39,620 nt of DNA from a virus, in IMG/VR virus record IMGVR_UViG_3300045988_070014, positions 1 to 39,620 of that record. One strand, 5' to 3'. Under the pieces are notes generated by a model. It was not told where the DNA came from and did not search any database. It saw only the letters and a program-made list of their open reading frames with translations. Positions 1,969 to 39,620 of the stretch are shown piece after piece. The position numbers were made by a program, and so were the translations under genes. Numbering within the stretch: the first letter of the stretch is position 1; each line of letters opens with the position of its first letter.

Positions 1969-1998
1969 ATTATATCAAATACGTTATGAATTTGTAAA
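1969..1998 (-). promoter_or_regulatory. Sigma-A type promoter for the scaffold/capsid operon
   Basis: Minus strand TTTACA-N18-TATAAT with an extended -10 (TGATATAAT), about 50 nt upstream of the scaffold ATG. Confidence 0.6.
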
Positions 1999-2004
1999 GT
2001 GCAT

Positions 2005-2031
2005 AAAAAAGACGTTCTTAATTAGAACGCC
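2005..2031 (-). terminator. Rho-independent terminator
   Basis: Minus strand CGUUCU-AAUUA-AGAACG stem-loop followed by UCUUUUUU. Confidence 0.65.
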
Positions 2032-2069
2032 ATTTTGCAAAACACTTTATCGTTTGGAGGTATTTTTGT
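2005..2069 (-). ncRNA. Candidate small RNA of about 65 nt (promoter-to-terminator unit)
   Basis: A perfect consensus promoter at 2076-2104 is followed within about 65 nt by the terminator. No ORF is present. The predicted RNA contains UACCUCCAAAC (anti-SD-like). Confidence 0.35.
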
Positions 2070-2075
2070 ACTTAT

Positions 2076-2104
2076 ATTATATCAAAAATAGGTTTGGTTG
2101 TCAA
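2076..2104 (-). promoter_or_regulatory. Consensus sigma-A promoter
   Basis: Minus strand TTGACA-N17-TATAAT with an extended -10 (ttTGATATAAT). Confidence 0.7.
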
Positions 2105-2164: not shown

Positions 2165-2530
2165 TTACTACATTTACTACAAAAACTACACTAATTTCTA
2201 TATAGCAAATATTTATAAAAAAATATATATATAATTTATTATTATAAATAAACTCTTGAAAATAAATGTAGTAAATGTAGTAAATATATATAAAGCTAGT
2301 GATACCAACGGTTTGAAGGGGTTACAAAAATGTAGTAAAAGTGTAGTAAAAAATGTAGTAACCATAAAAATGTAGTAAAGTAATTAATAATATATGAATG
2401 AGTTTTAACAGTTTATCGATAAGTTTTATCATTAAAAATGTAGTAAACTACAAAAATGTAACCGCAAAATGTAGTAAAAATGTAGTATTACTACATAAAA
2501 ATGTAGTAACTGAATCCGAAAATGTAGTAA
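2165..2530. repeat. Iteron array 1 (putative origin / initiator-binding array)
   Basis: 10 forward TGTAGTAA copies (mostly as AAAATGTAGTAA) and 3 inverted TTACTACA copies. An AT-rich tract (aaatatatatataatttattattataaataaa) lies between the inverted and direct sets. The array is immediately 3' of the VapE gene. Confidence 0.85.
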
Positions 2531-2536
2531 TTGAAA

Positions 2537-2564
2537 ATAAAAAAAAGACAGTAAAAATACTGCC
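2537..2564 (-). terminator. Rho-independent terminator after the VapE gene
   Basis: Minus strand GGCAGUA-UUUU-UACUGUC followed by UUUUUUUUAUUUU. Confidence 0.75.
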
Positions 2565-2569
2565 TTAGT

Positions 2570-3853
2570 TTATTCCCAGTAATCTCTTATAAATGGTATT
2601 TTGTAACCACGAATTGATTTACCATCAACTTTATATGGTTGGTTAGGTATTCCTCTCCTCATAAGCTCATTAGCAAGTGCTTTCTTTTCTTTTATATTAA
2701 GCTTTTCAGCTATTTCTGTAAGCTTGTACACTCTCAAGTCGTTACTTTCCCAGTCTACTTTATCATCTAATATGATTGATATATCTGTTTGAGCATTAAA
2801 TTGTCTATTAATTATTTTTTGTTTCGCTTCTTCCTCTTTGGTCAACCAATCGATACTATAATTAGTCAACCACATATCGTATACTGCGCCCCAAAACTCA
2901 AACATATTGAAATTGTCAAACTCTTCTATATTACAAGATTTAACAGGAATTACCCAAAACCTTCTTGAACCTGTTTCGTCTTTTAAGAAATCTTTTTTAT
3001 TAACATTAGCAATATAACTTGTTAGCCTTGGATATATTTCAGCGACACGACCAAACGGAACTCTATATTCATCAGTTGTATTAGTTAAAAACTGCTTAAT
3101 TTTACCTTGGTCAGCTTTTAAAGTTGTATCTAATTCTGCTAACTCAACAAGAATATATTTAGTATTTTGAATCACGCTATCAGTTTTATCAGGGTCTAAA
3201 GATACTCCATCTTTGAACAAGTCATTAAGCGGCATTAATTTACGTGCAAACGTTGATTTACGGCATCCCTGTTCCCCTTGAAGTGTTAATACTCCATTAG
3301 AACTATAACGGTTTTCTAGCTCATTGTGAGCCATTTTAACAACATTTAGAAGCCATTTATAAAACAAAGTGAAATAATACTCCGCATCTTCTAAAGCATC
3401 ATCTTGAAGCGTTAAACACTTTTCAAACACATCAAGCACTATATCGTGATTATTATTTCTATACTTCTTCAACATATCTACAAAGGGGTTTATTTCTTTT
3501 CTATTAGCTATATCAATTAAATATTCGTCGCATACCGCCCTATTAAGATTTAAACCTTCTTTCACTTGTAAATCATATACAAATGTCAGCATCTCACCTC
3601 TTTTTTTAAACTTTCTGCCTTCCATTTGTAAAGTTAATTCATGAGTTATCTTATTCATAACTGGATTTATTCCATAATGATTTAACAAATATTCTAAATT
3701 TGCCATTGTCTTTATTGGAACTGTTCCGCCATCTTTTAAATACTTAACCTCCGGAAATTGTATAAGAGAAACGTTGCTCTTTTTATTCTTAACATCATTA
3801 ATTGAAAAAACTTTTTTAGTGTTTTGCATTTTAATATCCTCCTTATTTACCAT
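2570..3853 (-). CDS. VapE / D5-like replicative helicase-initiator (virulence-associated protein E family)
   Basis: 427 aa. P-loop-like LTLQGEQGCRKSTFARKL and ...GSRRFWVIPV are typical of the VapE family. The more likely start is ATG at 3829 (MQNTKK) after aaggagg. Confidence 0.8.
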   Translation of the reverse strand: MVNKEDIKMQNTKKVFSINDVKNKKSNVSLIQFPEVKYLKDGGTVPIKTMANLEYLLNHYGINPVMNKITHELTLQMEGRKFKKRGEMLTFVYDLQVKEGLNLNRAVCDEYLIDIANRKEINPFVDMLKKYRNNNHDIVLDVFEKCLTLQDDALEDAEYYFTLFYKWLLNVVKMAHNELENRYSSNGVLTLQGEQGCRKSTFARKLMPLNDLFKDGVSLDPDKTDSVIQNTKYILVELAELDTTLKADQGKIKQFLTNTTDEYRVPFGRVAEIYPRLTSYIANVNKKDFLKDETGSRRFWVIPVKSCNIEEFDNFNMFEFWGAVYDMWLTNYSIDWLTKEEEAKQKIINRQFNAQTDISIILDDKVDWESNDLRVYKLTEIAEKLNIKEKKALANELMRRGIPNQPYKVDGKSIRGYKIPFIRDYWE

Positions 3854-4035: not shown

Positions 4036-4064
4036 TTGACAAAATAATTAAGTAAGTGTATAAT
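4036..4064 (+). promoter_or_regulatory. Conserved-family sigma-A promoter (the only plus-strand copy)
   Basis: TTGACAaaataattaagtaagtgTATAAT (N17), 32 nt upstream of the 4096 ATG. Confidence 0.7.
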
Positions 4065-17459: not shown

Positions 17460-17487
17460 ATTATAGCATACTTAATTATCTTGTCAA
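17460..17487 (-). promoter_or_regulatory. Conserved-family sigma-A promoter (early operon)
   Basis: Minus strand TTGACAagataattaagtatgcTATAAT. Confidence 0.7.
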
Positions 17488-17594: not shown

Positions 17595-17917
17595 TTACTA
17601 CACTTACTACAAAAACTACATCATTTTCTATATAGCACATTTTTATATAAAATATATATATTATTTTATTACTTATAATAAAGTCTTATAATTTAATGTA
17701 GTAAATGTAGTAAATATATATAAAGCATTGGTATCACTAGCTTACAAAGGGTTTTAAAAATGTAGTAATTATGTAGTAAAAAATGTAGTAAGCTTAAAAA
17801 TGTAGTAAATATTTTAATTAATCATGAATTGATTGGTAACATTTTGTTTATAATTAAGTGTAGTAAATGTAGTAAAACTACAAAAATGTAACTTAAAAAT
17901 GTAGTAAATGTAGTAAT
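17595..17917. repeat. Iteron array 2 (homologous copy of array 1)
   Basis: 10 forward TGTAGTAA and 2 inverted TTACTACA copies, with the same order of sub-blocks and the same AT-rich core as 2165-2530. Confidence 0.85.
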
Positions 17918-17943
17918 AAAAAAAGACACTCTTTCGAGCGTCT
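17917..17943 (-). terminator. Rho-independent terminator
   Basis: Minus strand AGACGCUC-GAAA-GAGUGUCU (8 bp) followed by UUUUUUUAUU. Confidence 0.85.
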
Positions 17944-18194
17944 ATAATGTAAGCACCTCAATTATTTATAGTCCTTGCAAGGATTGGACAGGCACTCTTG
18001 TTTTAATGTGCAGAGTTGCACTCACCTAGCTTACTTTTTGTTCTTTCGGTGTTAAAGGACTTATTTTCTTATAGAAAGCCTTTGTATCTACTGATACTAT
18101 ATAATAGTTTTTATTGCTTAACGGACAACGCCATCACTACAAAGGCATGAATCCTAGAATGGATACCGAGAAGCTCGTAATTAGAAACGCTTCT
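17917..18194 (-). ncRNA. Structured non-coding RNA of about 275 nt (or long structured 3' UTR), class unknown
   Basis: No ORF, and visibly higher GC than the flanks. Long-range helices are GCCUUUGUA/UACAAAGGC and GUAAGC/GCUUAC; hairpins include GUGCA-acuc-UGCAC, GAAGC..GCUUC and ACUAU-uau-AUAGU. It has its own promoter-like element and a strong terminator. Confidence 0.6.
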
Positions 18195-18200
18195 ATGATA

Positions 18201-18230
18201 ATTATAACACTTACTTACTTCGTTTGTAAA
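18201..18230 (-). promoter_or_regulatory. Promoter-like element upstream of the structured RNA
   Basis: Minus strand TTTACAaacgaagtaagtaagtgtTATAAT (N18). The spacer resembles the promoter family. Confidence 0.45.
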
Positions 18231-18339
18231 GCATCATAGTATAATTCTTTAAATACCTAGCATACTCATAAGCTTCCTTTGTGGTCTTGCAAGTCTTTGT
18301 TTGTAATAATTCGTTAGCGATTTTATCAACATTCTTCAT
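18211..18339 (-). CDS. Small protein (42 aa)
   Basis: RBS aggaggt then ATG. Sequence is MKNVDKIANELLQTKTCKTTKEAYEYARYLKNYTMMLYKRSK. Confidence 0.45.
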   Translation of the reverse strand: MKNVDKIANELLQTKTCKTTKEAYEYARYLKNYTMMLYKRSK

Positions 18340-18396
18340 AAAAAAATACCTCCTAAAGCTTTATATTTTATATATATGCTCTAAGAGGTAAAAAGA

Positions 18397-18924
18397 TTAC
18401 TCTTTTTCTTCAATTTCTTTAACTTTATCATGAAGCATTTTATCAACTAACTTGATATAACTTGCATCATATCCAGTAAACTCAAAGTCTTGTAACCATC
18501 TGCGTATCTTTTCTATTTCTTTAGAAACTCCGCAAAGGGGTTTTAAGACTTTTTCGCTTTCTTTAGGGAATTTAGCGACTAATCTATTAGATATAGAGGC
18601 TATAGTGGTATAAACTTCGATTTCCCAATCTAAATACAATTCTAAATGTTCCTTTATAGATAAAGGTTCTTTAACTCCTTCTAATTCCTCCCAAGACGGT
18701 TCAAGGTTTTCGCTGAACATATCAATTACATAGTGTTGTAAATCCACCCTATGACATCTATCCTCTTTAGATTGAACTTTATGCCATCTTTTAAACCCTT
18801 GTAATCCTTTCATGTGTGCTGACCTGCTAAGGGTATCGTGAATCATTTCACCTCTAGCACTTAAATTTATAGCTTCTTTTAATAGTTTTATAGCTTCATT
18901 GTTGAAATCATAACTTTTAATCAT
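18397..18924 (-). CDS. Four-helix-bundle, ferritin-like protein (tentative)
   Basis: 175 aa. ..AHMKGLQGFKRWHKVQSKEDRCHRVDLQHYV.. resembles ferritin helices A/B (G..GFa.W...Qa.EE..H). Confidence 0.35.
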   Translation of the reverse strand: MIKSYDFNNEAIKLLKEAINLSARGEMIHDTLSRSAHMKGLQGFKRWHKVQSKEDRCHRVDLQHYVIDMFSENLEPSWEELEGVKEPLSIKEHLELYLDWEIEVYTTIASISNRLVAKFPKESEKVLKPLCGVSKEIEKIRRWLQDFEFTGYDASYIKLVDKMLHDKVKEIEEKE

Positions 18925-25564: not shown

Positions 25565-27439
25565 TTAGTTACAATTATTGCAACGATATAACTCCCAAAA
25601 TTCATTAATCGGCTTTTTATGGATAATTTCTTTCTCTCTTTTTTGTATCGATGGTGTTTCAGTTTCTTGAGAAGGTTTTTGGACTGTAGCTTTTTGCATA
25701 AAATTATTTTCTTTATTTTCATGCTCAAACCCTTTTCTTTTCCCTTCTAATTTATATTTAAATTTCATTTCTCTATCAGATTCAACTATAAAATAATCTT
25801 TCTCTCTAATTTCAATTTTATAATCTCCCCAACTTAATTTATCTATATAAATGTTATAAGGTAACGTTGTGTTGATACATTCTTGAATTATTTCATCTAT
25901 TTCAATCCTGCAAATATATTTATCTTCAACTAACTCTGTTGTATAAATATTATCTGTGTCTGTTTCAGTTAATAAAGAGTTTATATCCTCATTTGCATAG
26001 AATGGAATATCTCCGAATTTAGTATGTTGAATACAGTTTTTGTTGCCACTTACATTTAAATCACCGTTTATAGTGACATTTCTTTTAAATAAAACCGAAT
26101 TTGCTCCAAAATAAGCATCGTCAGGGTCTATTGTAAACAAAGAACCGCTACCCCCTGAATCCATCAAATAAAAACTTCTAGTGTACCATGCTGACGAACC
26201 TCTTCCTTTCCCATCTTTCCAACCAAAAAAATAACTACCATTACCCGCTTTTTTTCCTAAATACATTGTAGTTCCATTCATATCTTGATTTTCATAATAT
26301 GTTATTGGTATCGGATTAAGAAGTCCAAATTTATCTAAAACCATATAAGAGTTGTAACTTGAAGCGTCTTTGCTATAACTTATAGTTAGATAAGAGTTGT
26401 TTTCATTTACAAAACCAATTACATCATCGCCCGTCGCAGTAGACCTTAACGCGGTGACAGAACCGTTTATTTTGCTTTCGTTTAAAAATGAATATACGTG
26501 CACGCCATTATTATTTAATCTTACAGATAATTTTCCATTATTTAATTGAGAAAATCCGTTTTCATCTAAAATCGTACTCGCAACACTTATAGCTCCACCC
26601 TCTGTAAGACCTTTGTTTACACTATTTATAATTGAATCAGGTGTTAATTGTTGAAAAACTTTCGAATATGAAGCGGTTTTACTTACATAACTAGAAGGTT
26701 GTTTGCCTTTGGTCAACATTATTTCAGTCCAACCACAATAATTTGTAGCTTCATAGTAATAAAATTCTAAAAATGCACTTTTAGCATTAGCGGGCGTAAT
26801 AAATGTAAAATGTTTAGGTATAAATGAATCATTTTCTGAAATCCAATTTCCTAAGTTTATTTCTTCATCAAATTTCCCTTCTTTTTCGAAGTCATTACCT
26901 TCTTTTATAGAGTTAGAGAATTTAACTTTTATTCCTAATCTTGTAGATGTTCCTGTAAAAAATAATCCTGATAAAGTATACTCGGTTGATGGTAAAATAG
27001 AGAATCTATTACTCCAACTAGAATTACCATTAATTGATGTTGGTGTAACATTTATATAATTTATATTTCTTTTACCTAAATAAGTATAATTAGTTGTTAT
27101 TGATATATTTGTCCCTCCGACATTCCACCCAAACGTGTTTTCACTTTCAAAAGCGCCGTTTACTATTGGATTCCCTTCCACTTTTCTTTCCGATTCCAAA
27201 GTTATTTTATCATTTAATATTTCTATTTTTGAAATCGTATTTTCCTCTACATTGTTAACACCTTGCCACAGTTTAGAAACTTCTAAGCCGATTTTGTCGT
27301 TTTGAAGATTGAATTTAGAATTCAATTCTTCATAGACAACCAAATCTTTATTATTAGTTATAACCGCAATCGCGTTTTGTTTTTCTTTTTGTAGCTTGGT
27401 TAGTTTTTGCTTGTAATTATCAAATAAACTTGTCGCCAT
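25565..27439 (-). CDS. Receptor-binding / tail fibre protein with a carbohydrate-binding-like domain
   Basis: 624 aa, following Tal. N-terminal coiled coil, then NPIVNGAFESENTFGWNVGG (CBM-like jelly roll). Confidence 0.65.
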   Translation of the reverse strand: MATSLFDNYKQKLTKLQKEKQNAIAVITNNKDLVVYEELNSKFNLQNDKIGLEVSKLWQGVNNVEENTISKIEILNDKITLESERKVEGNPIVNGAFESENTFGWNVGGTNISITTNYTYLGKRNINYINVTPTSINGNSSWSNRFSILPSTEYTLSGLFFTGTSTRLGIKVKFSNSIKEGNDFEKEGKFDEEINLGNWISENDSFIPKHFTFITPANAKSAFLEFYYYEATNYCGWTEIMLTKGKQPSSYVSKTASYSKVFQQLTPDSIINSVNKGLTEGGAISVASTILDENGFSQLNNGKLSVRLNNNGVHVYSFLNESKINGSVTALRSTATGDDVIGFVNENNSYLTISYSKDASSYNSYMVLDKFGLLNPIPITYYENQDMNGTTMYLGKKAGNGSYFFGWKDGKGRGSSAWYTRSFYLMDSGGSGSLFTIDPDDAYFGANSVLFKRNVTINGDLNVSGNKNCIQHTKFGDIPFYANEDINSLLTETDTDNIYTTELVEDKYICRIEIDEIIQECINTTLPYNIYIDKLSWGDYKIEIREKDYFIVESDREMKFKYKLEGKRKGFEHENKENNFMQKATVQKPSQETETPSIQKREKEIIHKKPINEFWELYRCNNCN

Positions 27440-30262
27440 TTAAATTTCCTCCCCTTCCGGATTTGTACACAATCCATCACTATTGAAATTATATCTTCTA
27501 TTGTTTATTATTAATTTTTCATTTAAAGCGAACTCGCCATTGTATTTAAAATAATACCAATCCCCATTATCTCTTTGATACCACTCGTTTATAAATTTAT
27601 GCGCTATACCACTTGTTGATATATTCCCGTTATTTTTGTCAATTTCAAAACTTATAAAATTTGGATTATCATTAGGTAAATAAACTTTTGAACCAACGAA
27701 CATACAACGCATTGTATTGAGTTTCACTTGATTTCCTGATGGATATCCTATTGTCGCTACCGAGATGTTAGGTCTTAAACGTCCTAACCAAGCTTCTCCA
27801 TTACTCGAAGTGTTCCCGTGATGCCCCATTTTTAAAATATCTATTTTCCCAACATTTTGACCACCGACAAATTCCTCTGAAACATAAGACATATCACCTT
27901 GTATAAAATATCTTATCGCATTATCAGGATTATAATAATATCTAAACATAAAACCAAGCGAGATATTATTATAATTAGTATAATTTGTGTTTCGGCTATT
28001 ATAAACTAAAATATCACTTTTGTTAGTTAATTGAATCTTTCTATCTGAATCTAATTCGATTATTTCTGCCCCTATATCTCTAGCGGTTTGCAACATTAAT
28101 TCGTGCAACTCTTTAGTTTTCCATTGCTTTATTTCTATAGTAGGCATTAAACTCCAATTTGGAGTTTTGCAGTATAATTGTTTACAACCGAATTTCTCAA
28201 TCAAATATGGTATTCCTTCAATGTGGTCACTGTGAGAATGAGTTATAAAAACCTTGTCAATTTTATTTATATTGTTTCTTATTAAATAATCCTCAACAAG
28301 TTTTGCACTCTTTTTTTCGCCTCCATCTATGAGATAAATCTCTCCATTGTGATTTTGTATAAGAGATAAATCCGGATAAGCCGGCGCAACTTTAGGTTGA
28401 AAGTGTGGAAAATGTATTCTTATATTTTTATCTAAAGTTACATCAGGAATCGTTGGTTTTTCTAAAGGTTCTAACCCTATTAATTGCCTTATACTGTTTA
28501 TCAAATCATAAAACGCATTTACATACTCTTTTTTAGCATTGTTTAAATTTACTTTTTCGATAGTATCATTTAAATTTTCAGAATTTAAAATCTTATCTAT
28601 TTCACCTAAAACACTTTCTTTTTCTTTTTCTAAATCTTTTAATTGCTCCTCAAGTATTTTCTTTTCAGTTTCGTCTATAATACCGTCTTTGTAAGCCCCT
28701 TCTAAGTATTCTTTTAATTTGTCTATTTCAGAGGTTAATGAATCGCTTGTTGTTATATCTTTAGAATTAATTTTTAATTCTTTAACATTTAAATAAACAT
28801 CACCGCCACCAGTAACTCGCATTGTAATTTCACCTTTTTCATTTGTTACAGTTAGGTTTTTAGCATCTATATATTGCCCTGCTAATAGTCCTGTTGTTAT
28901 TAATGAAGCGTTTATTTTTCCATCTATAGTAAAACCATATTCATATTTTCCATAATAGCCAGTTGTAGAAAAACCTAAGCCATTTTTATTATAACGGGTA
29001 ACGTTAACCGCTTTATTAATATCTTTATTATCCATTATAAGTAATTCATTAGGCTTTAAAACCACATAAGAATCCTTTAATCCTGCATTAATCATACTAT
29101 TTATATAGTCGCTTAAATTTGCATTAGGCTTAGTTTGTAATTCCTTTTCTAATTCTGCGATTATATCATTAACTGAAATAGGTCTACTTTCTTTTTTAAC
29201 GTTGGATAGTTCTGTACTTAATCTCTTTTTCATAGTTACAGAATAAACTCTTTTAATACATCTAGCTTTTATTTTAGTCCCGTAAGTATCCTCTATAACT
29301 TCTACTGTATCACCTATCTCAACTGTTTCGGTTTGACTATAATCTTTATATTGTTCCGTTTTAGACAATTCTATAAAGTTTATATTATAAGTTGCTTGTA
29401 GTTTGTCTATATTAAATAAAGTAAATTGAGTTCTAGCTCTTTCTTGTAAAGCTTGTTGAGCTTGCGCTAAAGTGTCAAAACCTTCGTCAGGATTATTTTC
29501 ATTTTTAACCTTTATATCTGAAAATTCCATAACTTTGGTGTAAACACTACTATAATTATTAATTAATTCACTTTCTACAATAGGAGCTTCTATGCCATCA
29601 AACCCACGCGGAACTATCCTAGTGCAAAGGTCATCAACATTCGATTTAATTTCAAACCCTGTTAAATTCTTTCTCGATTTGATTTGAACCCCTTTATCTT
29701 GTCCTACTCTAGTATTAATTTTACAGTTATATTGCCTTCTGTAGACTTCTCCGCCCCATCTGACTATAAAAGCATTATCAGCACCAAACAAAGCGTTATA
29801 AAGGCTCATGTTTTGATAATAAGCAGTATTAGTGTTAGATATATCAGAAACTAAGAAAAACTCCTTGTTACGCCCTGTAGCATCATTCAAAAGCTTACTT
29901 AAAGTTGCTTGACCATTCATATTTTCCGGTCTACAATCCTTTAAAAATAATGTTAACTGGTCAGCTATTGTAATCTGTCTTGCGAATATAGTAATGGTTC
30001 TTTTATCTTTCCTTATATTGCTTATTCTAAAGAACTCGTCCCCGTATTCATCTTCTAGTGTAATAATAGCTTCTTCTATTAAGTTGTCATAAATGTATTT
30101 TAAGCTTTCATCTTTTTTAACCGCTAAAACTATTTCAGCATAAAAGTCATCTTCTGTTTGTGTTATAGTCGCATTTATAAGAATTTCATCTAAAAAAGCA
30201 ATTCCGTTAGTAGAAATAACTTCTGACCTTGTTGCAGTTCTTGAATGTAATCTACTTCCCAT
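27440..30262 (-). CDS. Tail-tip protein Tal fused to a ComEC/Pce-like metallo-beta-lactamase domain and a cell-wall-binding repeat
   Basis: 940 aa after Dit, with a phage-minor-structural-protein N-terminus. C-terminal features are YLIDGG, ITHSHSDHIEG (HxHxDH), ILKMGHHGNTSS, then WYQRDNGDWYYFKYNGE..NFNSDG (CW_binding_1-like). Confidence 0.8.
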   Translation of the reverse strand: MGSRLHSRTATRSEVISTNGIAFLDEILINATITQTEDDFYAEIVLAVKKDESLKYIYDNLIEEAIITLEDEYGDEFFRISNIRKDKRTITIFARQITIADQLTLFLKDCRPENMNGQATLSKLLNDATGRNKEFFLVSDISNTNTAYYQNMSLYNALFGADNAFIVRWGGEVYRRQYNCKINTRVGQDKGVQIKSRKNLTGFEIKSNVDDLCTRIVPRGFDGIEAPIVESELINNYSSVYTKVMEFSDIKVKNENNPDEGFDTLAQAQQALQERARTQFTLFNIDKLQATYNINFIELSKTEQYKDYSQTETVEIGDTVEVIEDTYGTKIKARCIKRVYSVTMKKRLSTELSNVKKESRPISVNDIIAELEKELQTKPNANLSDYINSMINAGLKDSYVVLKPNELLIMDNKDINKAVNVTRYNKNGLGFSTTGYYGKYEYGFTIDGKINASLITTGLLAGQYIDAKNLTVTNEKGEITMRVTGGGDVYLNVKELKINSKDITTSDSLTSEIDKLKEYLEGAYKDGIIDETEKKILEEQLKDLEKEKESVLGEIDKILNSENLNDTIEKVNLNNAKKEYVNAFYDLINSIRQLIGLEPLEKPTIPDVTLDKNIRIHFPHFQPKVAPAYPDLSLIQNHNGEIYLIDGGEKKSAKLVEDYLIRNNINKIDKVFITHSHSDHIEGIPYLIEKFGCKQLYCKTPNWSLMPTIEIKQWKTKELHELMLQTARDIGAEIIELDSDRKIQLTNKSDILVYNSRNTNYTNYNNISLGFMFRYYYNPDNAIRYFIQGDMSYVSEEFVGGQNVGKIDILKMGHHGNTSSNGEAWLGRLRPNISVATIGYPSGNQVKLNTMRCMFVGSKVYLPNDNPNFISFEIDKNNGNISTSGIAHKFINEWYQRDNGDWYYFKYNGEFALNEKLIINNRRYNFNSDGLCTNPEGEEI

Positions 30263-37058: not shown

Positions 37059-37564
37059 ATTTCTTTCACCCCCCTCTTATCCCATACAGTTTTAATTTTT
37101 CTATATGGTTTTAATTCATTTGAAAACACTTCTTGCCATGTTAAAGCTTGACCTTTTGCATTAGTTGCCAAACTATAAGAATAATTACCAAAACTTTCAC
37201 TTACAATAGCACTCGGTTTATTTTCACTCTCATAAGTTTCTATTTTAGCTTTAAGGCTTATTAAATCGCTTGGAATAGCAAGAGAGGATATTATCCCCTC
37301 AAACTCTTCATCTTGCATCGTAAGGCTTTCTAGTGTTATATTTTGACCATCTACAAAAGCGACCTTATATACCCCATCATTTAGTGTACTGCCTTCTATT
37401 CTTACATATTGACCTATTATATATTTACCTTTTACCGTTATAGTGTTAGTGTTTATTGAATAGCTTCCACTTTCGTAAAATTTGTAAAAGTAATTATTTA
37501 TAAATTTTAAAATTTTTTGCATTTCCTCCTCCTTACCAAGTTGCTCCATCCCTCTTAATCGCAA
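37052..37564 (-). CDS. Head-tail connector protein (gp6-like, position-based)
   Basis: The likely start is 37522 (MQKILKF) after aaggaggagg. Confidence 0.5.
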   Translation of the reverse strand: MRLRGMEQLGKEEEMQKILKFINNYFYKFYESGSYSINTNTITVKGKYIIGQYVRIEGSTLNDGVYKVAFVDGQNITLESLTMQDEEFEGIISSLAIPSDLISLKAKIETYESENKPSAIVSESFGNYSYSLATNAKGQALTWQEVFSNELKPYRKIKTVWDKRGVKEIC

Positions 37565-39620
37565 TACCTAACTCACCACATACTATATCAAATATAACGT
37601 CATATCCAGTATCATTAGGATGCAATCCATCTGCTAATAAATTATCAATAGGTGTTTTGGTAAATCTACAATATTCCAAAAATCTTTGATATACATTAAC
37701 ATACTCAATGTCGTTTTTATAGCACACTTTAGCTATAGAGTGATTAACATCTTCCATATGAAAATTAGTTTCTGTTTTATTTTCTTCTTGAGCTACACTG
37801 GTTGGTATACTAGCCATTAGTATTAAGTCAATATCTTTAGCTTTGCATTTATCAATTATTGTTTGTAAATTAGGTTCAAAGCTAGATTTACCGTAATTAT
37901 TAATTCTATTATTTGTACCGTACATGCAGATAACAATGTCATCTGAATCTGATATTAAAGTATCGAAATTGTTAACTAATTCAACTGTAGAAGTTCCCAT
38001 GACAGCGTTATTTGTTACAGTGCAATTAAACTTTTCTTGCAAATAATCTCTAAAGCTATTTGCCCAACAATGTCCATTAGGATTTCTTCTATATTCATCA
38101 TTAAAGAATGTTCCTATTACTTCACCATCTTGTTTAAATCCAGTTCCACCTTGTCCATGTGTTATACTATCTCCAACCAATTTTATATTTGTATGTTTAG
38201 ATTTATCAAAAATCCTTGCTATAGTTTCTTTTGGTGTCTTATTCCTTTCAGGTACTATAGGCAATTTTATTACAGGTAATAAATCCTCCCTAATTTTATA
38301 ACCATGCTCCACAAATCCAGTAAACGCATCACCTTTTTCTAACTGGTCTGTATCCAACTGTGTGTTATGTCCACAAAAACGCACAAATTTTGTATTTTTT
38401 TTTGTAATAAATGTTGAAGATTCAGCGTTTATATCATCACTATATCCACCTCCTCCATTATAACCAACACCATTTTTATTTTCAAACTCCGAAAATTGAT
38501 TTTTATATCTAATTGTGTATTGAGTATTAGGAGATACTTCTATATAATCACTTACCCAAAATGATTCATTTTCGATTAACCTTCCTGTACCCGGATCTAT
38601 ATAATAACCTTTAGTAACTTTACTTTTATCAAATAAATTTTTGCTTTTAAGAATAAAACTACAAGAATTTTCATCAACAATATCTGTATTAAAATTTTCT
38701 TTTTTTAACGATTTTTCTCGTAGTTCATATGAGAGTTTAGCAAAATCAGCTTCGAAAAATGTCTTGAATTCTTCGTAAGAAAGTTGGTTTGTTCCCTCAT
38801 ATATCATTGTTTCCGAAAGCTTTTCTATCGCTCCGCATCCTAATATATATTTTATATTTTCATCATCAATAATAAAACCGCCCGAACCTACAATTAATTG
38901 TTTAATATACTCTTTTCTACTGTTTAAAGCAATTATTTTATCACACCAATTATTCCTATATTTTTCTTCATTTTCAACTTTAATATAATTAGTCAAAAAT
39001 CCCAATTTATTAGTAGTTATTTCACCATTTACCCCTATATATTTACCCTTTATAGCTAATCTTTTATCAAATAAATTAGTACCTTTTTTTAATCTATTCG
39101 AAGATATTACCCCAATTTGATAATTTAAAGAATCGGAAGCTGTCTCAAACTCTTCACCTTCTATCCCTATTTTTAACTCTTTAATTTCATTTCCATTAAC
39201 AAGAGCTTTCTCAGAAACTTCATTTATTGCACCAACTATTTTTTTATTTTCAGTTTGCAATTCTTCATCATTTTTAGGTTGATACTCTTTCAAAGCTAAT
39301 TTTCTTTGTTCTTCATTTTCTATTCTAACCCTTTCGTTTTCTTGTCTAATCGCTTCATCTTTTTTTATTGTAATAACCGTTTGGTCGAAAGTTTCTAGTT
39401 CTTGATTAGCCTTTTTAACATATTCCTCAATCTGTTTTAAAGCATTAACCTCATTTGTATTAGCGATAGCTTCACCACTAACCAAACCTTTCCCTATCTT
39501 AAAAGTAGCATAAGAACTTGTTATTCTTCCAATAGAATCAGAAACATCTAATTGAAATAATGCGTAGCCCTCTTTATTGAAAGCACTATTTTTAAGTTTA
39601 ACAGTAACTTCACCTTTTCT
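37533..39620 (-). CDS. BppU-N / coiled-coil / duplicated beta-domain / SGNH-esterase protein (the ORF is open to the window edge; the true start is at 335 via the circular junction)
   Basis: SGNH blocks are IKLVGDSITHGQGG (GDS), CMYGTNN and DGLHPND (DxxH). Two NLFDK...GYYI...YI.V repeats are present. The frame is open through 39620. Confidence 0.85.
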   Translation of the reverse strand, partial: RKGEVTVKLKNSAFNKEGYALFQLDVSDSIGRITSSYATFKIGKGLVSGEAIANTNEVNALKQIEEYVKKANQELETFDQTVITIKKDEAIRQENERVRIENEEQRKLALKEYQPKNDEELQTENKKIVGAINEVSEKALVNGNEIKELKIGIEGEEFETASDSLNYQIGVISSNRLKKGTNLFDKRLAIKGKYIGVNGEITTNKLGFLTNYIKVENEEKYRNNWCDKIIALNSRKEYIKQLIVGSGGFIIDDENIKYILGCGAIEKLSETMIYEGTNQLSYEEFKTFFEADFAKLSYELREKSLKKENFNTDIVDENSCSFILKSKNLFDKSKVTKGYYIDPGTGRLIENESFWVSDYIEVSPNTQYTIRYKNQFSEFENKNGVGYNGGGGYSDDINAESSTFITKKNTKFVRFCGHNTQLDTDQLEKGDAFTGFVEHGYKIREDLLPVIKLPIVPERNKTPKETIARIFDKSKHTNIKLVGDSITHGQGGTGFKQDGEVIGTFFNDEYRRNPNGHCWANSFRDYLQEKFNCTVTNNAVMGTSTVELVNNFDTLISDSDDIVICMYGTNNRINNYGKSSFEPNLQTIIDKCKAKDIDLILMASIPTSVAQEENKTETNFHMEDVNHSIAKVCYKNDIEYVNVYQRFLEYCRFTKTPIDNLLADGLHPNDTGYDVIFDIVCGELGIAIKRDGATW
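39502..39620. repeat. Exact copy of 1-119
   Basis: See the 1-119 feature. Confidence 0.97.

What the first reader, a model, noticed from the sequence alone, without database searches (positions are those of the whole stretch)
17917..18230. GC-enriched structured non-coding RNA of about 275 nt, class unknown, next to iteron array 2
No ORF longer than a few codons exists on either strand between the last small ORF (stop at 18211) and the 8-bp GAAA-loop terminator at 17917-17943. The segment is visibly richer in G/C than the genome.

Read on the minus strand it supports nested long-range helices: GCCUUUGUA...UACAAAGGC (9 bp enclosing about 50 nt), GUAAGC...GCUUAC and GUCCUU...AAGGAC. Local hairpins include GAAGC...GCUUC, GUGCA-acuc-UGCAC and ACUAU-uau-AUAGU. 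A promoter-like TTTACA-N18-TATAAT (18201-18230) with a family-like spacer lies just upstream.

I cannot match it to a riboswitch, tRNA, tmRNA, 6S or T-box pattern. It could act in replication control (priming or antisense at the adjacent array), or be a regulatory or anti-defence RNA.
Basis: partly seen in the sequence, partly recalled or inferred. Interest (0 to 1): 0.65.

Follow-up and report, generated by a model that had tools for sequence, protein, structure and literature searches.

The report
Optional non-coding RNA cassette in phage
A roughly 280-base stretch with its own promoter, no gene and a terminator is an optional add-on carried by about four in ten relatives of this Clostridium perfringens phage; it probably makes a small RNA of unknown job, but nothing shows that the RNA has a conserved fold.

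Summary
The window is a phiCP39-O-like Clostridium perfringens siphophage. The sequence features are real: an 11/12 sigma-A promoter with extended -10 (18230..18201), about 277 nt with no sense-strand ORF, and an intrinsic terminator (17943..17918).

The segment is an indel cassette. It is absent from 12 of 14 distinct sequenced relatives and present in about 44% of metagenomic contigs of the family. It comes in short, medium (this window) and long forms that share a middle module. All 65 copies keep both promoter hexamers and the TG. The core varies about as little as codon positions 1+2 of neighbouring genes.

"Structured" is not supported:
- Whole-element folding z is -1.46.
- A 9-bp stem arises in 20% of shuffles.
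- Two of the "nested" helices cross each other.
- The 9-bp helix is broken without compensation in 7 of 18 variants.
- No compensatory pair exists, although the alignment is 98% identical and has little power.

There is no Rfam family, tRNA or tmRNA, no homologue outside this phage group, and no co-inherited gene.

Best reading: a stand-alone, moron-type phage small RNA gene of unknown target. A role in replication is unlikely, because phages without it have the same iteron array. Interest is modest.

The parts
18225..18230 (-). -35 hexamer TTTACA. It lies inside the last codons of the 42-aa ORF.
   Evidence: It is invariant in all 65 element-bearing loci, whereas element-free relatives have TCTACA.
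18201..18209 (-). Extended -10, TGTTATAAT. This is the left edge of the inserted cassette.
   Evidence: It is present only where the element is present, and it is invariant while the 17-18 nt spacer has six sequence variants.
18169..18200 (-). 5' module of the medium (window) form. The inferred transcription start is at about 18194/18193. A 6-bp 5'-terminal hairpin pairs AGAAGC (18194..18189) with GCUUCU (18174..18169).
   Evidence: Read from the sequence. In the long form it is replaced by an unrelated module of about 103 nt. The start site is inferred from the spacing to the -10, not measured.
18078..18168 (-). Middle module (CGGUAUCC...GAUACAAAGGC), the only part shared by the short, medium and long forms.
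   Evidence: pi is 0.023. The helix is broken in 7 of 18 variants (L002, L020, L026, L064, L066, L068, L069) with no compensating change.
17944..18077 (-). 3' module, absent from the short form. It is the most conserved part.
   Evidence: pi is 0.007, with 5 of 156 sites segregating. This compares with 0.048-0.066 at third codon positions of flanking genes.
17918..17943 (-). Intrinsic terminator: AGACGCUC-GAAA-GAGUGUCU plus a U-run. It abuts the first iteron.
   Evidence: The 5'-arm variants AGACGCUC (56 loci), AGACACUC (3), AGGCACUC (3) and the element-free AAAGGCAC all pair with the invariant 3' arm. Element-free phages also have a terminator here, and array 1 has a paralogous one.
18211..18339 (-). 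Upstream 42-aa ORF (context). Its C-terminus differs according to whether the element is present.
   Evidence...KQQYK marks element-free phages. ...K(R/Q)(S/N)K, KQNKKML and KQISKCYN mark element-bearing ones.
17595..17917 (.). Iteron array 2 (context). It is a paralogue of array 1 at 2165-2550, which lies next to a VapE-like helicase gene.
   Evidence: It is near-identical in phages with and without the element.

Best explanation
This is a stand-alone accessory ("moron"-type) small-RNA gene of phiCP39-O-like Clostridium perfringens phages.

Shown:
- A cassette was inserted between the stop codon of a 42-aa ORF and the terminator that precedes iteron array 2.
- The cassette brings its own extended -10 box, which completes a host sigma-A promoter.
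- It contains no conserved ORF on either strand.
- It ends at the pre-existing intrinsic terminator.
- It exists as three modular forms that have been exchanged among otherwise different phage backgrounds.
- It varies less than synonymous-type sites nearby.

Inferred:
- Host RNA polymerase makes a discrete RNA of about 277 nt here (about 350 nt in the long form, about 210 nt in the short form).
- This RNA acts in trans, by base pairing or by binding a protein, on a host or phage target.
- The variable 5' module and the hypervariable patch (18129-18146) are the likeliest specificity determinants. The conserved 3' part with the terminator would serve as the stable body.
- The target and the phenotype are unknown.
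For: - The element is present or absent among phages that are 95-99% identical.
- All 65 retrieved element-bearing loci keep TTTACA-N17/18-TGTTATAAT although the spacer varies. The 6 element-free loci lack the -10.
- The phage otherwise uses consensus sigma-A promoters: 11 perfect 12/12 sites, 10 of them on the coding strand.
- Terminator pairing is kept through one-sided G-U/A-U changes in four arm variants.
- Sense frames are closed, and the antisense ORFs lack a Shine-Dalgarno sequence. Their changes are mostly non-synonymous, and the ORF is frame-broken in L017/L014.
- Core pi is 0.013 and 3'-module pi is 0.007. Codon position 3 of neighbouring genes gives 0.048-0.066 and positions 1+2 give 0.011.
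- About 115 of 264 family contigs carry an element-type ORF end.
- Only the element's own tiles co-segregate with it among 2 positive and 4 negative genomes, so it does not need a co-inherited protein.
- Relatives carry Sequestin and Tad2-like anti-defence genes immediately upstream of the 42-aa ORF, so this is a cargo hot spot.
Against: - There is no transcript evidence.
- Folding is not significantly better than shuffles, either whole (z -1.46) or in 120-nt windows (z -0.8 to -2.6). Non-element neighbours reach z -4 to -6 in the same scan.
- Low diversity could reflect recent acquisition and spread by recombination through the very conserved flanks rather than selection.
- No homologue exists outside this phage group, so nothing independent supports function.
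- The best predicted pairing with phage translation-initiation regions is only marginal: -35.1 kcal/mol against a null of -31.2 +/- 2.1, reached by 3% of shuffles.
Confidence: 0.45

Rival explanations
1. It is neutral or decaying inserted DNA. A piece of foreign or rearranged sequence landed in the 3' untranslated stretch before the terminator. It is carried along and shuffled by recombination between the highly conserved flanks, and the promoter match is fortuitous or irrelevant.
For: - Three size forms and an empty form look like indel turnover.
- Folding is not significant and there is no covariation.
- Helices are broken by single changes.
- The whole block from the 42-aa ORF to the early promoter is unusually invariant (pi 0-0.03), so low diversity is not specific to the element.
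- No source sequence or homologue was found anywhere.
Against: - The promoter hexamers and TG are invariant in 65 of 65 copies while the spacer between them varies.
- The 3' module has 5 of 156 segregating sites and almost no indels in an AT-rich genome. This is as constrained as codon positions 1+2.
- The element is retained in about 44% of contigs from many unrelated samples.
Confidence: 0.27
2. It acts in cis on the neighbouring origin-like iteron array 2. Transcription from the element's promoter towards the array, by read-through or by local supercoiling, or the RNA itself as primer or antisense, would tune replication initiation.
For: - The terminator abuts the first iteron.
- Array 1, a paralogue, lies directly after a VapE-like helicase gene. 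The arrays have direct repeats, an AT-rich core and inverted repeats, as replication origins do.
Against: - Most relatives lack the element but keep the same array, terminator and early promoter.
- A terminator separates the RNA from the array in every form.
- All genes and the RNA are on one strand. No convincing opposite-strand promoter faces the element, so there is nothing for it to be antisense to.
Confidence: 0.1
3. It encodes a small protein on the + strand: the 41-44 aa ORFs here, or the 63-66 aa ORF in the long form. It could also be a type I toxin-antitoxin pair.
For: - + strand ORFs exist at 18016..18150 and 18114..18239.
- A 66-aa antisense ORF is present in XP41-N3.
- The 44-aa ORF is moderately hydrophobic.
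Against: - The starts are TTG with no Shine-Dalgarno sequence, and no + strand promoter lies in 17900-18250.
- Changes between variants are mostly non-synonymous. A 1-nt loop indel breaks the long ORF in L017/L014. The 44-aa ORF is cut to 34 aa in XP41-N3 and is absent from the short form.
Confidence: 0.03

Closest known systems
Phage morons and prophage-encoded trans-acting small RNAs (own knowledge: for example DicF and IpeX of E. coli prophages, and Spr RNAs carried on S. aureus phages and islands)
   Same: It is an autonomous unit with a promoter and a terminator, inserted between conserved genes. It is present in some close relatives and absent from others. It has no ORF, and host sigma-A-type signals drive it.
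   Different: It shares no sequence or Rfam family with any of them. At about 277 nt it is longer than most base-pairing small RNAs. No target or chaperone site has been identified, and transcription has not been shown.
RNA anti-CRISPRs (Racrs; PMC10651486, abstract seen)
   Same: A phage-encoded non-coding RNA with a counter-defence role would fit the location. Relatives carry Tad2-like and Sequestin genes one gene upstream.
   Different: Racrs are solitary mimics of CRISPR repeats. No repeat-like unit is evident here. Similarity to C. perfringens CRISPR repeats could not be tested with these tools.
Origin-associated or antisense replication-control RNAs (own knowledge: ColE1 RNA I/RNA II; transcriptional activation of lambda ori)
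   Same: It lies directly beside an iteron plus AT-rich array that resembles a replication origin.
   Different: It does not overlap or oppose any other transcript. A terminator separates it from the array. It is dispensable in most relatives.
Non-autonomous insertion elements (MITE or IS200/IS605-type PATE; own knowledge)
   Same: There is a discrete indel with an empty site in relatives. The pentamer TTATA occurs at both junctions and once at the empty site (read).
   Different: It has no terminal inverted repeats beyond TATAAT-N-TAA. There is a single copy per genome, no other copies in the window and no match in phage, plasmid, genome or metagenome collections.

Membership tests
Any Rfam 15 family (riboswitches, T-box, 6S, ribozymes, known sRNAs) | Covariance-model score at or above the family's gathering threshold | tested here: not met
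   There were 0 hits in the whole window at gathering thresholds. With permissive E<=10 scans of 17600-18500 and of the long form in L002, only chance hits appeared (STnc370 E 3.9, snoR64a E 3.1, mir-3479 E 7.5). None is on the element's sense strand with a meaningful score.
tRNA / tmRNA | Cloverleaf or tmRNA architecture recognised by ARAGORN | tested here: not met
   There were 0 genes in the window.
Evolutionarily conserved structured ncRNA | Base pairs supported by compensatory changes, and folding energy beyond shuffled controls | tested here: inconclusive
   None of the 39 reader-proposed pairs and none of the 62 RNAalifold pairs has a two-sided change. The observed measures equal the shuffled ones. 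Folding z is -1.46. The alignment is 98% identical, so absence of covariation is uninformative. The 9-bp helix, however, is actively broken in 7 of 18 variants.
Sigma-A (sigma-70 type) promoter | -35 and -10 hexamers at 16-18 nt spacing, with an optional TG extension | tested here: met
   TTTACA-18-TATAAT with TG scores 11/12. The hexamers and TG are invariant in 65 of 65 copies. This is a consensus match only; activity was not measured.
Intrinsic (Rho-independent) terminator | G+C-rich hairpin followed by a U-run, with pairing maintained in relatives | tested here: met
   It has an 8-bp stem, a GAAA loop and a run of six T after the stem. Four 5'-arm variants all pair with the same 3' arm.
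Phage moron | A self-contained transcription unit present or absent between conserved genes of close relatives | tested here: met
   It is the only window segment that co-segregates with itself among six complete genomes.
Type I toxin-antitoxin | A small hydrophobic toxin ORF with a ribosome-binding site, plus an overlapping antisense RNA | tested here: not met
   The + strand ORFs lack a Shine-Dalgarno sequence and a promoter, and they are not conserved.
Type III toxin-antitoxin antitoxin RNA (ToxI-like) / CRISPR mini-array | Tandem direct repeats of about 30-45 nt | tested here: not met
   The only direct repeat is a 10-nt pair, 66 nt apart.
RNA anti-CRISPR (Racr) | Sequence and structure mimic of the host's CRISPR repeat | not testable with these tools
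   No C. perfringens CRISPR repeat set was available, so this was not compared.
MITE / IS-derived element | Terminal inverted repeats or subterminal hairpins, a target-site duplication and multiple copies | tested here: inconclusive
   TTATA occurs at both junctions. There are no convincing terminal inverted repeats, one copy per genome and no copies elsewhere.

The most novel reading that the evidence does not exclude
The cassette encodes a modular counter-defence or host-takeover RNA specific to this phage group. A conserved 3' body would carry exchangeable 5' specificity modules: two unrelated 5' modules plus a hypervariable 18-nt patch. Phages would swap these by recombination in an anti-defence cargo hot spot, next to Tad2-like and Sequestin genes in relatives. 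This would be an RNA counterpart of protein anti-defence cargo, with no known family.
Probability: 0.1. Interest if true: 0.7.

Novelty: new member of a known kind. Interest (0 to 1): 0.3.

Why it matters
If transcribed and functional, this would be the first non-coding RNA gene described for the phiCP39-O group of C. perfringens phages, which are studied as therapeutic and biocontrol agents. Natural element-free, short, medium and long variants in near-isogenic backgrounds already exist as isolates (vB_CpeS-17DYC and XP41-N3 against phiCP39-O, phiCP26F and CPD1). That makes a host-range or defence-evasion test straightforward. As it stands, it is an unverified candidate small RNA without a supported structure or target. 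This is a common kind of finding in phage genomes.

Tried and rejected
- **Known RNA family.** Rfam at gathering and permissive thresholds, on the window and on the long form, gave nothing. ARAGORN gave nothing.
- **Homologues elsewhere.**
  - blastn against 50,697 phage records found only two records of the same family.
  - The plasmid search returned only short AT-rich matches.
  - Exact 21-22-mers from four parts of the element were scanned in viral contigs (0 hits).
  - They were also scanned in GTDB genomes and JGI metagenomes.
  - The two hits, L013 and L076, are chance matches inside high-GC coding genes.
- **Pseudogene or small protein.** Six-frame translations, comparison of antisense ORFs across forms and a Shine-Dalgarno check all led to rejection.
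- **Internal paralogue in the phage.** blastn-short against the window found none.
- **Partner gene.** A tile presence/absence comparison over six genomes found none.
- **Target prediction.** Pairing against 64 phage translation-initiation regions gave a best duplex reached by 3% of shuffles, which is not convincing.
- **Transposon-like insertion.** The TTATA duplication was noted but no terminal inverted repeats were found.
- **Literature.** The comparative-genomics paper on these phages (PMC3118219) does not mention intergenic RNAs, repeats or origins.

Full report
**What the window is**

The 39.6-kb window is a complete or near-complete genome of a Clostridium perfringens siphophage of the phiCP39-O / phiCP26F group. 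It is 95-99% identical to 15 GenBank records, which represent 12 distinct phages. All long ORFs lie on the - strand, so the finding is read on that strand.

Upstream of the finding lie small accessory genes of unknown function and a BRO-N antirepressor. Next comes a 42-aa ORF (18339..18211), followed by the finding and then iteron array 2 (about 17917-17595). A perfect sigma-A promoter (17487..17460) then drives the early recombination and replication genes Gp157 and ERF.

**Checking the observation**

The promoter-like site (TTTACA-N18-TATAAT preceded by TG, 18230..18201, 11/12) and the terminator (AGACGCTC-GAAA-GAGTGTCT plus a T-run, 17943..17918) are both there. No - strand ORF of 20 aa or more lies between them, and every sense frame is full of stops.

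Several statements need correcting:
- The + strand does carry TTG-start ORFs of 44, 41 and 26 aa.
- GC is 0.354 against a genome mean of 0.304. That is only about 1.4 sd and is typical of coding DNA; it stands out only against the 0.19-GC iteron region.
- The 9-bp helix exists, but a perfect stem of that length arises in 20.5% of dinucleotide shuffles. The number of stems of 6 bp or more (17 against 11.4 +/- 3.4) is borderline.
- The whole-element MFE gives z -1.46. 120-nt windows give z -0.8 to -2.6, while nearby non-element windows reach -4 to -6.
- The two 6-bp "nested" helices in fact cross each other.

**The key comparative result: an optional cassette**

Alignment with relatives shows that phiCP39-O, phiCP26F and the IMG/VR relatives have only about 16 unrelated bases plus a terminator in place of the element. 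Only vB_CpeS-17DYC (98.5% identical) and XP41-N3 carry it among the 14 distinct sequenced phages in the INPHARED phage collection.

The C-terminus of the 42-aa ORF reports the state. It ends ...KQQYK when the site is empty and takes other endings when the element is present. Looking up those protein variants gave 71 family loci in total:
- 6 empty;
- 3 short (about 215 nt after the -10);
- about 34 medium, which is the window's form (283 nt);
- 26 long (about 354 nt).

By contig counts, about 115 of 264 family contigs (44%) carry an element-type ORF end.

**Modular anatomy**

The forms are built from modules:
- The two 5' modules are unrelated: 32 nt in the medium form and about 103 nt in the long form.
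- The middle module (window 18168..18078) is common to all forms.
- The 3' module (18077..17944) is missing from the short form.
- The terminator comes last.

The terminator itself is older than the element. Element-free phages have it, and the paralogous array 1 has a similar one after the VapE-like helicase gene.

**Is it functional?**

Evidence for function:
- The extended -10 arrives with the cassette. It is invariant, together with the -35, in 65 of 65 copies, although the spacer has six sequence variants. Empty sites have TCTACA and no -10.
- The phage clearly relies on host sigma-A, with 11 perfect 12/12 promoters.
- Four variants of the terminator's 5' arm all pair with the same 3' arm through G-U/A-U switches.
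- Among 21 loci with homologous flanks, nucleotide diversity is 0.013 in the core and 0.007 in the 3' module (5 of 156 sites segregating). This compares with 0.048-0.066 at third codon positions and 0.011 at positions 1+2 of the neighbouring genes.

Evidence against function, or neutral:
- The whole block from the 42-aa ORF to the early promoter is unusually invariant.
- A recently acquired cassette spreading by recombination through those flanks would also look conserved.

**Is it a structured RNA?**

There is no positive evidence. On 18 distinct core sequences (98% mean identity), none of the 39 reader-proposed pairs and none of the 62 RNAalifold pairs shows a two-sided change. Every measure equals its shuffled control.

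The 9-bp helix is broken without compensation in 7 of 18 variants: L002, L020, L026, L064, L066, L068 and L069 (G-C to A-C, C-G to A-G or C-A, U-A to G-A).

**Is it coding, or something known?**

- The antisense ORFs lack a Shine-Dalgarno sequence and a promoter. They change non-synonymously, and a 1-nt indel breaks the long one in part of the long forms.
- There is no Rfam family at any threshold and no tRNA or tmRNA.
- There are no tandem repeats and no paralogue in the phage.
- blastn of phage and plasmid collections found no homologue. Exact-word scans of viral, genome and metagenome collections gave two hits, both chance matches in high-GC genes.
- Tiling the window against two element-positive and four element-negative complete genomes shows that only the element's own tiles (17851-18300) co-segregate with it. 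It therefore has no co-inherited protein partner.

**Most likely mechanism**

I rate a stand-alone, moron-type small RNA gene as most likely (0.45). It would be transcribed by host RNA polymerase from its own promoter, stopped at the resident terminator, and act in trans. The variable 5' module and the hypervariable patch 18129-18146 are candidate specificity regions. These steps are inferred, not shown.

In relatives, Sequestin (PF21825) and Tad2-like (PF11195) genes sit immediately upstream of the 42-aa ORF. This marks the neighbourhood as an anti-defence cargo site and makes a counter-defence RNA a reasonable but untested sub-hypothesis.

Rivals:
- Neutral inserted DNA (0.27).
- A cis effect on the origin-like array 2 (0.10). 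This is weakened because most relatives lack the element yet keep the same array, and because a terminator always intervenes.
- A small + strand protein (0.03).

**Novelty and interest**

It is an unclassified candidate RNA of a familiar kind (phage accessory ncRNA) with no demonstrated structure, transcript or target. The useful new facts are its optional, modular nature, its strong sequence conservation, and the availability of natural isolates with and without it for a direct test. Interest is 0.3.

Noticed in passing
window 2005-2104 (- strand): Just downstream of iteron array 1, a perfect 12/12 sigma-A promoter with TG (2104..2076) is followed about 45 nt later by an intrinsic terminator (2031..2011). 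This predicts an RNA of about 65 nt containing a CCUCC (anti-Shine-Dalgarno-like) motif. A second promoter, TTTACA-18-TG-TATAAT (1998..1969), then serves the scaffold gene.
   Followed up: no
window 2165-2550 and 17595-17917: The two iteron arrays are paralogous blocks of about 400 bp. Each runs terminator, direct TTACTACAT repeats, a conserved GGTATCACTAGC/GTGATACCAA-type segment, an AT-rich core, inverted repeats and then a consensus promoter. Array 1 directly follows a VapE-like helicase gene (2570..3853; Pfam E 2e-40). That gene is annotated "integrase" in phiCP39-O and CPD1. The arrays look like replication origins.
   Followed up: partly
window 18340-18395 (- strand): A 13-bp hairpin (z -3.8) has a 3' arm that contains the Shine-Dalgarno sequence of the 42-aa ORF, and it is followed by U7 and then the ATG. 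It looks like a terminator that also sequesters the ribosome-binding site. This spacer has zero diversity among 21 loci.
   Followed up: partly
L037, L039, L041, L043 (locus positions about 697-1444): In some relatives, Sequestin (PF21825, 83 aa) and Tad2-like (PF11195, 159 aa) genes are inserted immediately upstream of the 42-aa ORF. This marks the region as an anti-defence cargo hot spot.
   Followed up: no
whole window, - strand: Ten perfect 12/12 TTGACA-N16-18-TATAAT promoters lie on the coding strand, at 17487, 16489, 14156, 12909, 11041, 5071, 4956, 2104, 31575 and 23720. One more lies on the + strand at 4036. Total promoter-like matches do not exceed shuffles, yet perfect ones are concentrated in the early region.
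   Followed up: no
window 18440-18600 (- strand), inside the 175-aa gene: This region gave the strongest local folding signal of the scanned stretch (z -5.9 and -4.0 for 120-nt windows), and it lies within coding sequence.
   Followed up: no
window 26700-28950 and 37500-39150: The tail-protein region 26700-28950 is present in all four element-negative isolates but diverged beyond blastn in the two element-positive ones. The region 37500-39150 (650-aa ORF) has no blastn match in any of the six compared genomes. Both are mosaic or variable tail and structural modules.
   Followed up: no
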